64,000 nucleotides of DNA from Longimicrobiales bacterium (GTDB lineage: Bacteria; Gemmatimonadota; Gemmatimonadetes; Longimicrobiales; Gaopeijiaceae): NCBI GenBank assembly GCA_965202985.1, contig CBDBCF010000001.1:736001-800000 (forward strand), in the 5' to 3' direction. The position numbers are program-made. Positions 27,001 to 30,000 of the stretch are shown here, piece by piece (position 1 is the first letter of the stretch; every line of letters starts with the position of its first letter).

Positions 27001-30000
27001 GCCTTGTACCCGGCGAGGTTCGAGATCGTTGTATGGTGCGGTTCGCCCGGCCTGGCTGCCTCGCCGGTTCCTCCCGACATGGAGGTAGCAGTCGTTGCAA
27101 TCATCGAAGGTCATCCCGTGGCCGTCATCCGTGACCGAGATATCATCGTTCTCTTGGAGCGAACGTCCGGTTGGAATCTTGATCCAAACGTTTCTGGCCA
27201 TTGCGTCATAGGCGTTCGAAATCAGCTCGGCGATAGCGGGAACAGCCCCCGAGTACATCTGGAGCCCGAGGTGACGGAACAGTTGACCTGCTACGGTCAT
27301 CGTGTATGCGCGCTCGGACATGTTGTATCTCCTAAGCCGGTGCGTGGTGAGTTAGCGCAAGAGCCTTCAACCGCGCAGCCAGGAGCTTCCGCAACTCCTG
27401 GCGGACAACGTTCACCTCCACGCCCATGGATCGCAGGGCGGTTAGGCCGAGAAGAGGCTCGGCGCCCGGTTCGCCAGTGACGACCGTTCCGCCGACGAAA
27501 TCGTCCATGAACTCGATCTTGGCCACGGCGACATCCGCCTCCACCCGGCGTCCGTCCGCCAGCCGATGCGTGCGTCGCCCGTCGGACGCGAGGCCGACCG
27601 CCTCGATGCACTCGGGAGGGACCACGGTATTCGTCGCTCCCGTGCCCGCCAGGAACCGGCTTCGCCAACACCGGGACGGATCGGCTGGATTTCGAATCGT
27701 CACGTCCATATGAATGGCTGCCATTCGTCGGTCGTCCCTCCGTTCAGGTTGGCTCCGCCGGGTCCATTAGGGACTTGGGGGAGATCGTGTAGGTGGTCGA
27801 GACGCGCTCGCTGGCGAGCAGCTTGGCGAACGGGTTCCGGATGCGGACCATGGTCGGCTTGGGCGTCGCGCAGTTCCAAGTTACATAGAGCCAGTAGCTG
27901 TCGGCCAGATGGCGCGCCTGGGTCCATTCGTTGCCGGTTACGTGCACGCCGCCGTGGTCCCAGCGGCCCTTCACTTCGATGCGCCGGACCCGTCCGTTCG
28001 GCAGCTCGGCAAGGAGGTCGAAGCCGGGAGAGTCGGGAAGGCCGGCTACACGGGCAAGGGCGAGCTTGCTTACGTCCCGCACGACCGCATCCCGCTCCTC
28101 CTCCCAAGCGCACGGCGGTCCGCACGGCGATCTTGGTCGACGCGCTCGTCGTACCGGTCGATCTCGTCGCTGTTGGTGGCGGGCACGGCCAGCGCATGGA
28201 CGACGAACTGGACCTCCCCGGCCACGATCCGACTTGGCGCGGCCGCGAGCTCCGCCAGCCTCCGTCTTCTCCGCCAGGAGATCGCGCTGGGCGAGCTTGA
28301 GCGCTCGAGAGCCAGATGGATCAGATAGGGCTCCTTCGCTTGGGGGCGATGAAGATGCCGCCGCGCAGGGCGTCCGCGGCAAAGGTGCGCAAAATGTGCT
28401 CGCGCAGGGCGTCGAAAGACGAGGGCGGGGATGCGGCAAGGCCTTCTGGGCCAGTCGGCGGTCGATGGGGCACATATCAAATGATAATACGACGACGCAC
28501 GAATTGCAAGATCGACCGTTCGGAAGGTGAACGAGGGCGGTGCCGTCGACGGCCGACGGCCCGGCGCGCTTTGGGGTTGTTGTCTTGTTGCTAGCGCTTC
28601 AGGCCGGGAAGGATGCGGGCGGGAACGAGGCGGCGATACTCGTCCCAGTACGCGCCGTACTTCTGCCGGCAGCGCTTCTCGTCGCGTCCGGCGCGATGCA
28701 CCAGCAGGATCGTCAGGAAAATCACGTAGAACCAGGGCAGGAAATGCAAGAACAGGGCCGGCGCCGTCCACAGGAAGGCCGCCGCGATCTCTGGCACGTA
28801 GTGAAAGTGCCGCGCCACTCCCCACCAACCGGACGCCAACAGGACGGTCTCCTTCTTCTCGCCGTCTTCGGCGCGATACTTGGCGACGACAAGTCGCGGC
28901 TTCTTCCCCCAGATCGTGCAATCGCCGCCGGTTGCTCGGACGACTTGACGTTGCCTGTCGGCTAGGTAGTTGATCGTCACCGCAGCCACTCCTGCGACCG
29001 CGATCGCGGCCGACCACGCCATGCCCAGGTGATGCGGGTGATGCACCAGGTACAAGATGGGCGACGTGTAAATGGCCGGCACCCATACCAAGCAGCCCCA
29101 GCAAATCATGAATCCGGCCCGGTCGTGCATGATGTCGATTGAACAGAGGTAGCCGGTTTCCCAGATGAAGAACTTTACCAAGTAGGCCATCATGACGACC
29201 AGGGCCACGACCATCGAATCGCTCAGGCCGCCCAGCTCGGCCTGCTTCGCCGCAAACGACGACACGATGATCGCCCACCCCATCAAGCCGAAGCGGCAGT
29301 TGGTGAACATCTTGACGTCCCAGCCCAAGATGCGCGGGTACAACTCCGTGCCCCAGTAGTAGTCGAAGATGAAGTTGCCGCTCGGTCCTCCGTCCGGCCC
29401 GGAGGGGAAGAACCGGCCCTTGAAGTACAGCAACAGGCAGAACGCCAAGCTGGAGACGTTCAGCGCGCCGATGATGCCGGCGAAGTTGTCGTAGACGATG
29501 GTCGGCTCGAACCAGTCGAACGCAAAGCCGCCCAAGAGGAACAAGCCCAGCGAAATCAGGAAGCACGCCACGCCGTTGGCGCGGTACACCGGCACGTGAC
29601 CCTTCGGCGTGGTCGGCCCCCGAAAGGAGCGCCCCGGCACCAAGCGCATCAGCAACAACTGCACCACGGCGAACACACCAATGATCTTCCAGCCGGCCGC
29701 CGTGCCCCAGAGGACCGGCTTCCATATGGACGCCAGTTCACTAAGGAAGCCGACCGCGAGCACCCGTTCCACAAAGGACGCCAGCGAGCCGCCGTGTTCT
29801 ACGTTGATCTCCCACACCAACAAAGCCGTCGGCGGGCAGCAGATCAGCAGGAACAGCGGCGCCAACGTGCGGTGAAAGAAGCCGCCATGCCCCGTTCTTG
29901 CCATCGAAGGGCCGTCCGTCTCTGTCATTTCAGCGTGCCCGCGCGAAGATCAGAGACGGGACCGGCCCGGCGACCGTGGGCCAGCAGGTGCGCACGTCGC

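What a model noticed while it worked through the whole genome (the two positions that open the first line are those of the whole stretch)
28591..29904. Plant/Coxiella-type sterol delta-7 reductase in a sponge-associated bacterium that has no sterol synthesis genes
g00594 is a full-length ERG4/ERG24-family protein 49% identical to Arabidopsis DWF5 (7-dehydrocholesterol reductase) and 63% to the Coxiella burnetii homolog, sitting in a defence island, while no oxidosqualene/squalene-hopene cyclase family is found in the genome. I read it as a horizontally acquired enzyme that reduces host (sponge) delta-5,7 sterols rather than self-made ones. It would extend host-sterol editing, known from intracellular pathogens, to a sponge symbiont lineage and bears on sponge sterol biomarkers.
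Evidence so far: swissprot.tsv: 49.2% identity over 443 aa, E 1.5e-147, to DWF5; 36-39% to animal DHCR7. Pfam ERG4_ERG24 i-E 2.7e-74; no SQHop_cyclase, squalene epoxidase or sterol methyltransferase Pfam rows. relatives.tsv: PF01222 in 34 of 313 family genomes, 63 of 2019 in the phylum. find_homologous_proteins: 2608 relatives, one cluster named Coxiella burnetii 7-dehydrocholesterol reductase at 63%. find_sequencing_runs with a C2 stretch of this genome: held at >=0.5 of words by 6 runs of 3 studies, 5 of them labelled sponge metagenome.
(Added by a program. Inside this text positions count along the whole contig: contig position 736,001 is position 1 of the stretch shown here. "Call 12" and the like, gene names such as g00115 and contig names such as C1 are that model's own, and its searches are not shown. 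The text may have been shortened before it was handed on; [...] marks where a part breaks off. The agent that wrote the report below was given it as the finding of a first reader that could run no searches.)

Follow-up and report, generated by a model that had tools for sequence, protein, structure and literature searches.

The report
Stand-alone sterol delta-7-type reductase gene
A bacterium that cannot make sterols carries an intact, horizontally acquired enzyme of the type that finishes cholesterol synthesis, most likely to modify sterols taken from a host, a pattern already known from intracellular bacteria.

Summary
Window 28591-29928 (-) encodes an intact 445-aa ERG4/ERG24 reductase (Pfam 2e-73; predicted structure matches MaSR1, PDB 4QUV, TM 0.80/0.90). 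In trees it lies in the 7-dehydrocholesterol-reductase (DHCR7) clade, not with the CYP51/cyclase-linked or ERG4-type paralogues of related genomes.

It is an orphan. No squalene/oxidosqualene cyclase or squalene epoxidase was found in this 2-contig genome or in three congeners, including a single-contig chromosome that carries the orthologue.

It was acquired horizontally. The gene and its congener copy are sister to copies in four Latescibacterota MAGs (85-88% aa, another phylum). All six nest inside a Coxiellaceae/Legionellaceae-labelled group. dN/dS is 0.10-0.19 and codon composition fits each host, so the gene is kept and used.

The best reading is NADPH-dependent reduction of exogenous delta-5,7 sterols. 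No activity, substrate or sponge origin was tested here, and activity of the Coxiella homologue is also unproven.

The idea is not new. [quoted passage not shown] The scan has also noted orphan sterol-reductase genes of sponge symbionts before, on other DNA. This is a new member of a known kind, with moderate interest.

The parts
28591..29928 (-). Stand-alone ERG4/ERG24-family reductase gene of the DHCR7 clade (445 aa; alternative start at 29904 gives 437 aa)
   Evidence: PF01222, 2e-73. (MaSR1, 3e-63). (pLDDT 91.4; TM 0.80/0.90 to 4QUV). (tree). (dN/dS 0.10-0.19).
28476..28590 (.). 115-bp spacer downstream of the reductase. It holds a ~55-bp element (28522-28577) that has at least 14 copies at 84% identity in congener G076.
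   Evidence: repeated matches of query 17023-17078 in G076. (single copy in G000). (weak terminator-like hairpin on the + strand and one promoter-like site on the - strand).
30293..31774 (-). YhgA-like (Transposase_31) gene directly upstream, same strand. It is multi-copy in the genus and keeps the same adjacency in G076.
   Evidence: PF04754, 5e-18. (87% to G076 beside its reductase; 10 or more copies at 71-75% in G075 and G077).
11000..28475 (-). Defence island to the left: HmaC/DUF499, AAA_21 ATPase, two REase_II + Dcm modules, HmaB/DUF1156 methylase, PDC-S32/AbiJ-like protein, NOV_C/TmtA-like protein
   Evidence: The backbone is shared with G076 (88-94% nt) and G077 (80%). The restriction modules at 16150-19304 and 24264-27321 have no full-length counterpart in the syntenic stretches fetched from G076 and G077 (only 230 bases, 24354-24583, match G077 at 69%) and have low GC3.
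33140..34495 (-). Fic-domain (SoFic-like) gene to the right. The conserved core cluster begins at about 34570.
   Evidence: (window 34570-51000 is conserved in all three congeners, but elsewhere on their chromosomes).

Best explanation
The gene encodes a working inner-membrane, NADPH-dependent sterol C=C reductase of the DHCR7 (delta-7) orthologue group. The bacterium cannot make sterols, so the enzyme most likely acts on delta-5,7 sterols taken up from outside (host or prey membranes) and converts them to delta-5 sterols, for example 7-dehydrocholesterol to cholesterol or ergosterol to brassicasterol. By analogy with MaSR1, NADPH would enter from the cytoplasmic face and the sterol from the lipid phase, so the sterol must first partition into the bacterial membrane. 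The gene reached this Longimicrobiales lineage by horizontal transfer from a Coxiellales/Legionellales-type lineage. It was also exchanged with Latescibacterota. Shown: family, fold, clade, conserved pocket residues, orphan status, transfer, purifying selection. Inferred: regiospecificity, substrate source, uptake, benefit.
For: Family and fold:
- Pfam 2e-73.
- AF2 pLDDT 91.4, pTM 0.90.
- Foldseek to 4QUV: TM 0.80/0.90, rmsd 3.0.

Pocket residues, mapped on the alignment with residue roles taken from PMC4951196 and PMC12489058 (passages read):
- MaSR1 Y241, D257 and R395 correspond to Y249, D265 and R412, all identical.
- N359 corresponds to H376 and D363 to E380.
- Both substitutions are typical of the clade. 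H also occurs at this position in Coxiella Stmp1, which is active in yeast (PMC8787468).

Clade:
- Trees put the protein with eukaryote DHCR7-labelled proteins (97/91), apart from the CYP51/cyclase-linked type and the ERG4 type.
- I looked up 20 of the 150 best representative clusters. Nine carried a functional name: 8 '7-dehydrocholesterol reductase(-like)' and 1 generic family name. None was delta-14 or delta-24.

Orphan status:
- No cyclase or epoxidase in G000.
- No cyclase in the three congeners, which are 92-98% complete in 1-2 contigs.
- 43 of 50 genomes carrying close homologues also lack a cyclase.

Transfer:
- 100/100 sister to four Latescibacterota copies; 100/97 with an uncultured Coxiella sp. 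MAG and a Gammaproteobacteria MAG; 96/90 inside a group that includes C. burnetii and Paracoxiella.
- dS to Latescibacterota is 0.84, not saturated.

Selection: dN/dS 0.10-0.19.

Precedents and substrate supply:
- The sterol-auxotroph Phytophthora capsici uses its DHCR7 on recruited ergosterol (PMC8984297, abstract read).
- About 90% of the free sterols in cultured Ircinia muscarum sponge cells were delta-5,7 sterols (PMC4210886, passage read).
Against: - No enzymatic evidence exists for any bacterial member of this clade. Activity of Coxiella CBU1158 is 'not yet known' (PMC8787468).
- Names in databases are automatic.
- My trees hold no plant DWF5 or vertebrate DHCR7, and no experimentally tested delta-14 or delta-8 reference apart from the separate sequence comparison with MaSR1. 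MaSR1 scores about as well against P0001 (217 bits) as against the paralogues (219-226 bits).
- Two pocket residues differ from MaSR1.
- No sterol-uptake gene and no conserved sterol-related neighbour was found: in the four Latescibacterota loci, the neighbours are transposases, a Type ISP enzyme, PIN, a nitroreductase and an LRR protein.
- The sponge association was not tested here.
- The 50 genomes were my own pick from 80 loci, and their completeness is unknown.
Confidence: 0.55

Rival explanations
1. It is a sterol-modifying reductase acting on exogenous sterols, but with another or a broad regiospecificity (for example delta-14, delta-8 or the side chain), like the loosely specific Coxiella Stmp1, and not a delta-7 reductase.
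For: No bacterial clade member has been assayed. Stmp1 was named for suspected broad specificity (PMC8787468, passage read). MaSR1, a delta-14 reductase, is as close in score as distant animal DHCR7 proteins (217 bits; 204-260 bits for arthropod-type clusters). The N-to-H and D-to-E changes lie in the pocket.
Against: The protein is placed in the DHCR7 clade with 97/91 support, apart from the delta-14-context and ERG4-type paralogues. Identity to those paralogues is only 27-35%. Every specific reaction name seen among the best clusters is DHCR7.
Confidence: 0.17
2. The enzyme reduces a non-sterol lipid made by the bacterium or its neighbours (another polycyclic or isoprenoid double bond). The sterol label would then be a historical accident of the family name.
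For: The genome has no sterol pathway. 43 of 50 carriers lack a cyclase. Some carriers are labelled as lineages not known to be host-bound, such as Chitinophagales, Spirochaetota and Verrucomicrobia. The genome has one SQS_PSY and one FA_hydroxylase family gene, so isoprenoid lipids exist.
Against: I know of no non-sterol substrate for the ERG4/ERG24 family proper (recalled, not searched). 26 of the 80 carrier records are labelled Chlamydiae, Legionella-type or Coxiella-type, lineages that live inside sterol-bearing cells. Sequence conservation with eukaryotic DHCR7 reaches 47% over the full length.
Confidence: 0.15
3. The gene is passenger cargo of a mobile region with no role in this host.
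For: It lies at the margin of a variable defence island beside a multi-copy YhgA-like transposase gene. It is absent from 2 of 4 genus members, one of which (G077) keeps the island up to about 170 bases before the gene.
Against: dN/dS is 0.15 between the two Longimicrobiales copies and 0.10-0.12 against Latescibacterota. The frames are intact in all six genomes. GC3 has adjusted to each host: 0.87 here and 0.66-0.73 in Latescibacterota.
Confidence: 0.05
4. The gene is the last step of a self-made sterol pathway whose other genes are missing from the assembly or are non-canonical.
For: The assembly is 92% complete. Relatives in the same family do carry sterol clusters of Rieske oxygenase, reductase, P450 and cyclase, in G068 and G066.
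Against: No cyclase was found in any of the 4 genus genomes, including G076 (one contig, 98% complete), which has the orthologue. tblastn with the relative's cluster proteins finds no orthologues. The cluster-linked reductase is a different paralogue, 32-33% identical.
Confidence: 0.04

Closest known systems
Coxiella burnetii CBU1158 (putative delta-7 sterol reductase), an 'orphan' eukaryote-like reductase
   Same: 62% identical. Same tree clade at 96/90. Stand-alone gene in a genome lacking the rest of the pathway (PMC8787468 and PMC2817430, passages read).
   Different: The host here is an uncultured Longimicrobiales (Gemmatimonadota) bacterium, not a known intracellular pathogen. CBU1158 activity is itself unproven. 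Coxiella also carries the ERG4-type Stmp1, whereas this genome has a single PF01222 gene.
Eukaryotic DHCR7 / DWF5 (sterol delta-7 reductase, EC 1.3.1.21)
   Same: Same orthologue clade in my trees. 47% identity to the Hondaea protein, 33-37% to arthropod, chytrid and Ancoracysta proteins. Shared motifs include SGWWG.ARH..Y and RDE.RC..KYG.
   Different: In eukaryotes it is the last step of an endogenous pathway; here no pathway exists.
Phytophthora capsici PcDHCR7
   Same: A DHCR7 kept by a sterol auxotroph and shown to convert recruited ergosterol to brassicasterol (PMC8984297, abstract read). This is the best functional analogue of the proposed role.
   Different: It is a eukaryote, and the gene is a vertically retained remnant, not a transfer.
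Sterol reductases of sponge-associated Chlamydiae (Dharamshi et al. 2022)
   Same: Orphan sterol reductases of KEGG groups K00223/K00213 and K09828 were reported as enriched in sponge-associated chlamydial MAGs and suggested to be horizontally acquired (PMC9666466, passage read).
   Different: Those are obligate intracellular bacteria. This copy is in Gemmatimonadota and, near-identically, in Latescibacterota. I did not compare sequences with those MAGs.
MaSR1, delta-14 sterol reductase of Methylotuvimicrobium alcaliphilum (PDB 4QUV)
   Same: The only close solved structure. E 3e-63, 32% identity, TM 0.80/0.90. Tyr, Asp and Arg of the pocket are conserved.
   Different: MaSR1 is part of a real bacterial sterol pathway and a different paralogue class. 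At N359 and D363 this protein has H and E.
Sponge-symbiont 'clusters of steroid genes' (TM7SF2/ERG24-CYP51-LSS; Kelly et al. 2022)
   Same: Same protein superfamily and same kind of host community. Such clusters occur in relatives of this genome: in G068, Rieske oxygenase, reductase and P450, with a cyclase about 4 kb further on (PMC9531527, passages read).
   Different: The gene here is not in such a cluster, is only 32-33% identical to the cluster-linked reductase, and its genome has no cyclase. That paper's main text does not mention DHCR7 (0 occurrences).

Membership tests
ERG4/ERG24 sterol reductase family (PF01222) | Full-length match to the family profile above the curated cut-off | tested here: met
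   248 bits against a cut-off of 27; residues 68-442 match profile positions 60-430 of 432.
ERG4/ERG24 sterol reductase family (PF01222) | Polytopic helical membrane fold of MaSR1 | tested here: met
   AF2 pLDDT 91.4, pTM 0.90, about ten long helices. Foldseek to 4QUV: E 4e-23, TM 0.80/0.90.
ERG4/ERG24 sterol reductase family (PF01222) | NADPH-pocket and proposed catalytic residues (MaSR1 Y241, D257, N359, D363, R395) | tested here: inconclusive
   Y249, D265 and R412 are identical. H376 replaces N359 and E380 replaces D363 (alignment; residue roles from PMC4951196 and PMC12489058). Both substitutions are shared by the bacterial clade and by some eukaryotic DHCR7 proteins, and H occurs in yeast-active Coxiella Stmp1. 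Their effect was not measured.
DHCR7/DWF5 orthologue group (sterol delta-7 reductase) | Groups with DHCR7 proteins to the exclusion of delta-14-type and ERG4-type paralogues | tested here: met
   A 33-row clade with 97/91 support. The CYP51/cyclase-linked and ERG4 types fall outside it, each at 100/100. Six long-branch rows were left out of that tree; the quick tree with all 47 rows agrees. No plant or vertebrate reference was included.
DHCR7/DWF5 orthologue group (sterol delta-7 reductase) | Reduces the C7=C8 bond of delta-5,7 sterols with NADPH | not testable with these tools
   This needs expression and sterol analysis.
Orphan sterol reductases of host-associated bacteria (Coxiella/Legionella/Chlamydiae type) | Close homology to, and nesting among, those genes | tested here: met
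   62% to the C. burnetii protein. Sister at 100/97 to an uncultured Coxiella sp. MAG plus a Gammaproteobacteria MAG.
Orphan sterol reductases of host-associated bacteria (Coxiella/Legionella/Chlamydiae type) | The rest of the sterol pathway is absent from the genome | tested here: met
   for G000 (92% complete, 2 contigs). for the three congeners.
Orphan sterol reductases of host-associated bacteria (Coxiella/Legionella/Chlamydiae type) | The bacterium lives in contact with a sterol-bearing host | not testable with these tools
Sponge-symbiont steroid gene clusters (ERG24-CYP51-LSS) | Reductase adjacent to CYP51 and a cyclase | tested here: not met
   The neighbours are defence genes and a YhgA-like transposase gene. 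There is no cyclase in the genome.

The most novel reading that the evidence does not exclude
A DHCR7 gene that originated in intracellular Coxiellales-type bacteria has been passed among unrelated, presumably extracellular, sponge-symbiont phyla (Gemmatimonadota and Latescibacterota). These symbionts would take up the host's abundant delta-5,7 sterols and reduce them to delta-5 sterols. That could serve to build sterols into their own membranes, or to remove easily oxidised and potentially toxic dienes. Symbionts would then help set the sterol profile of the sponge, and so the sterane record attributed to sponges.
Probability: 0.3. Interest if true: 0.7.

Novelty: new member of a known kind. 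Interest (0 to 1): 0.45.

Why it matters
If the enzyme really edits host sterols, two phyla of uncultured symbionts join Coxiella, Legionella, Chlamydiae and Phytophthora in using a lone late-pathway sterol enzyme on borrowed sterols. That would mean sterol handling in sponge holobionts is not only de novo synthesis by the host or by symbionts with full clusters, which bears on how sponge sterol and sterane profiles are read. The tight cross-phylum clade also gives a clean, non-pathogen gene with which to test, for the first time, what the bacterial DHCR7-like clade does.

Tried and rejected
- Solved structures could not discriminate subtype. MaSR1 is about equally distant from P0001, from the cluster-linked paralogue, from the ERG4-type paralogue and from Hondaea DHCR7 (204-226 bits). 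No DHCR7 structure matched by sequence in the PDB copy.
- I looked for conserved sterol-related neighbours in the four Latescibacterota loci and found none.
- I looked for flank homology that would define a mobile cassette shared by the two phyla. Similarity (82-84% nt) is confined to the coding region.
- Promoter and terminator scan: one promoter-like site against 0.2 expected, lying downstream of the gene, and terminator-like sites at the chance level. This was not informative.
- Earlier scan notes by sequence: nothing.
- The de novo cholesterol paper (PMC10202945) has no usable passage on a bacterial C-7 reductase.
- Literature on this gene type in Latescibacterota or Gemmatimonadota sponge symbionts: none of the 10 listed papers holds 'sterol reductase', so none holds all four terms. 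For sponge + symbiont + '7-dehydrocholesterol reductase' there were 3 papers, none on bacteria carrying the gene, judged from titles and abstract starts.
- I considered that the island location means a defence role. I rejected this as unsupported, because composition and synteny show a mosaic hot spot.
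Full report
**What is there.** The minus-strand ORF 28591..29928 encodes 445 aa. The protein matches Pfam ERG4_ERG24 at 2e-73 over nearly the whole profile, and MaSR1, the delta-14 sterol reductase of PDB 4QUV, at 3e-63. An AlphaFold2 model built on 38 aligned relatives has pLDDT 91.4 and pTM 0.90, with about ten long helices. It superposes on 4QUV with TM 0.80/0.90.

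I mapped the MaSR1 residues that two papers describe as the NADPH pocket or as proposed catalytic residues (PMC4951196, PMC12489058; passages read) onto the alignment. Y241, D257 and R395 correspond to Y249, D265 and R412 and are identical. N359 becomes H376 and D363 becomes E380. Both changes are shared by the whole bacterial clade and by some eukaryotic DHCR7 proteins. H also occurs at this position in Coxiella Stmp1, which is active in yeast according to PMC8787468. The enzyme therefore looks intact.

**Which reductase.**
- The best 150 representative clusters, taken from 1.84 billion proteins, run from 49% identity downwards.
- I looked up 20 of them. Nine carried a functional name: eight '7-dehydrocholesterol reductase(-like)' (Hondaea, Gonapodya, Strigamia, Rhodnius, Dinothrombium, Orchesella and two JGI entries) and one generic family name. 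None was delta-14 or delta-24. These names are mostly automatic.
- Within the bacterium's own family (314 genomes), PF01222 matches fall into four kinds:
  - an ERG4-type, 63% identical to Coxiella Stmp1 (G023, G036, G011);
  - a type that sits with a Rieske oxygenase, a P450 and a cyclase (G068, G066);
  - a divergent class of about 390 aa that is common in genera g2 and g3;
  - the present type, found only in G000 and its congener G076.
- P0001 is only 27-35% identical to the other three kinds.
- In a maximum-likelihood tree (41 rows; six long-branch rows left out), P0001 lies in a clade with the DHCR7-labelled eukaryotes (97/91). The cluster-linked and ERG4 types fall outside, each at 100/100. 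The quick tree with all 47 rows agrees.

**Orphan status.**
- G000 is 3.86 Mb in 2 contigs and 92% complete. It has one PF01222 gene.
- It has no match to either cyclase domain or to squalene epoxidase. No sterol-methyltransferase C-domain was found either, but that search rang in no control genome.
- tblastn with the cyclase (both kinds), the P450 and the Rieske protein of relatives' clusters finds no cyclase and only 21-24% P450 matches.
- None of the three congeners has a cyclase. One of them is G076, a single contig at 98% completeness, and it carries the orthologue.
- Of 50 genomes carrying close homologues, 43 lack a cyclase. These 50 were my pick of the 80 loci, and their completeness is unknown. 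The seven with a cyclase are six Chitinophagales-type genomes and one Spirochaetota genome.

**History.**
- G076, labelled a Longimicrobiales MAG, has the gene at 91.7% nt identity in the same place: at the margin of the same HmaB/HmaC island and next to the same YhgA-like transposase gene.
- G077 keeps the island (80% nt) up to window position 28421 but has no reductase. G075 lacks the gene as well.
- The next nearest copies are in four MAGs labelled Candidatus Latescibacterota, at 85-88% aa and 82-84% nt. The similarity stops at the gene's ends.
- After those, identity drops to 67%, in an uncultured Coxiella sp. MAG and a Gammaproteobacteria MAG.
- The tree puts the six copies together (100/100), sister to those two MAGs (100/97), inside a group with Legionellaceae, Coxiellaceae, Paracoxiella and C. 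burnetii (96/90).
- dS is 0.27 between the two Longimicrobiales copies and about 0.8-0.86 to Latescibacterota. That is unsaturated and far too low for a divergence between phyla. dN/dS is 0.10-0.19 throughout.
- GC3 is 0.87 here, like the core genes, and 0.66-0.73 in Latescibacterota, like their neighbours. The transfers are therefore not recent, and the gene has been maintained in each host.
- Of the 80 carrier records, 26 are labelled Chlamydiae-type (14), Legionella-type (8) or Coxiella-type (4). Seventeen are Bacteroidota-type and 17 are unclassified.

**Context.**
- PADLOC confirms a defence island on the left: HmaC, HmaB, an HEC-01A/AriA-like ATPase, two REase_II + Dcm pairs, PDC-S32 and a TmtA-like C-terminus. 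A SoFic-like gene lies on the right.
- The island is a mosaic. Its backbone is shared with the congeners. The two restriction modules have low GC3 (0.61-0.74) and no full-length counterpart in the syntenic stretches fetched from G076 and G077.
- In Latescibacterota the gene also sits among transposases, a Type ISP enzyme with a PIN gene, a nitroreductase and a large LRR protein, between core genes.
- I see integration hot spots, not a functional link to defence.

**Mechanism proposed.** The enzyme would be an inner-membrane reductase. By analogy with MaSR1 (PMC12489058, passages read), NADPH enters from the cytoplasmic opening and the sterol from the lipid-facing opening. Hydride then goes to C7/C8 of a delta-5,7 sterol that the cell has taken from its surroundings. 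Family, fold, clade, conserved residues, orphan status and selection are shown. Regiospecificity, sterol uptake and benefit are inferred.

Two findings from the literature make this reading reasonable. Phytophthora capsici, a sterol auxotroph, uses its DHCR7 on recruited ergosterol (PMC8984297, abstract read). About 90% of the free sterols in cultured Ircinia muscarum sponge cells were delta-5,7 sterols (PMC4210886, passage read). Against it, no bacterial member of the clade has been assayed, and activity of CBU1158 is 'not yet known' (PMC8787468, passage read).

**What is known already.**
- Orphan DHCR7 and ERG4 homologues in Coxiella and Protochlamydia were described as transfers from eukaryotes in 2009 (PMC2817430, passages read).
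- A sterol reductase gene acquired from eukaryotes was reported in Legionella drancourtii (PMC2667531, search listing only).
- Sponge symbionts of ten phyla, Gemmatimonadota included, carry ERG24-CYP51-LSS clusters (PMC9531527, passages read). That paper's main text does not mention DHCR7.
- Among the 10 papers listed from the held library, none combines 'sterol reductase' with Latescibacter*, Gemmatimonad* and sponge.
- Earlier notes of this scan describe other orphan ERG4/ERG24 clades moving among sponge symbionts. I did not test whether any of them equals the ~390-aa class seen here.

**Verdict.** The gene is real, intact and selected, and the orphan and transfer claims are well supported. 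The host-sterol reading is the best available but untested, and the sponge origin was not checked here. It is a new member of a known kind: two further phyla carry the Coxiella-type orphan DHCR7, with a clear cross-phylum transfer. Interest 0.45.

Noticed in passing
L005 (G068:C1:2279391-2283410) and L102; also G066 (L007): Family relatives carry a sterol-synthesis cluster. In G068 it runs Rieske oxygenase (SdmA-like), a 380-aa ERG4/24 reductase and a P450 back to back, with an oxidosqualene-type cyclase about 4 kb further on. This matches the 'clusters of steroid genes' published for sponge symbionts (PMC9531527).
   Followed up: partly
L002 (G023), L003 (G036), L004 (G011): Three other family genomes carry an ERG4-type delta24(24(1))-sterol reductase. 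It is 63% identical to Coxiella burnetii Stmp1 and 72-77% identical to copies labelled Alphaproteobacteria, Chloroflexota and Myxococcota. This is a second Coxiella-type orphan reductase spreading across phyla. None of the three genomes is among the 19 cyclase matches.
   Followed up: partly
L009-L012 and about 30 further matches in genera g2/g3: A divergent ERG4/24-like class of about 380-400 aa (110-170 bits to PF01222) is common in the sister genera. It forms a very long branch (2.87) in the tree. It may be the 'orphan clade of sponge symbionts' in earlier scan notes; I did not check this.
   Followed up: no
window 16150-19304 and 24264-27321: Two paralogous modules, each a HATPase_c_3/REase_II gene plus a Dcm methylase, with GC3 of 0.61-0.74, are inserted into an HmaB/HmaC backbone whose GC3 is about 0.85. 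Neither has a full-length counterpart in the syntenic island stretches fetched from G076 and G077 (only 24354-24583 matches G077, at 69%); homologous copies lie elsewhere in G075 and G077 (72-74% nt).
   Followed up: partly
window 30293-31774: The YhgA-like (Transposase_31) gene has ten or more copies at 71-75% nt identity in congeners G075 and G077, and several tandem copies in G076 near 3.16-3.17 Mb.
   Followed up: no
window 28522-28577: A ~55-bp element directly after the reductase stop codon has at least 14 copies at 84% identity scattered over the G076 chromosome, but only this one copy in G000.
   Followed up: partly
window 34570-51000: A conserved gene block (long AsnB-like protein, HTTM-domain protein, NAD-dependent epimerase and others) is syntenic in all three congeners. 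In G075 and G077 it lies next to a paralogous DUF499/DUF1156 system (69% nt), and in G076 it is far from the orthologous island. This points to large rearrangements around these islands.
   Followed up: no
G000:C1:1056583-1056990 (L097); G000:C1:494021-494881 (L104): The genome has a single FA_hydroxylase-family (sterol-desaturase-like) gene and a single SQS_PSY-family gene. Neither lies near the reductase, and I did not examine their roles (carotenoid or other).
   Followed up: no
L020:7332-10942 and L021:7306-10916: In two Latescibacterota genomes the reductase is followed directly by a Type ISP restriction-modification enzyme and a PIN-domain gene, between purD and era. Again it is a small island between core genes.
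   Followed up: no
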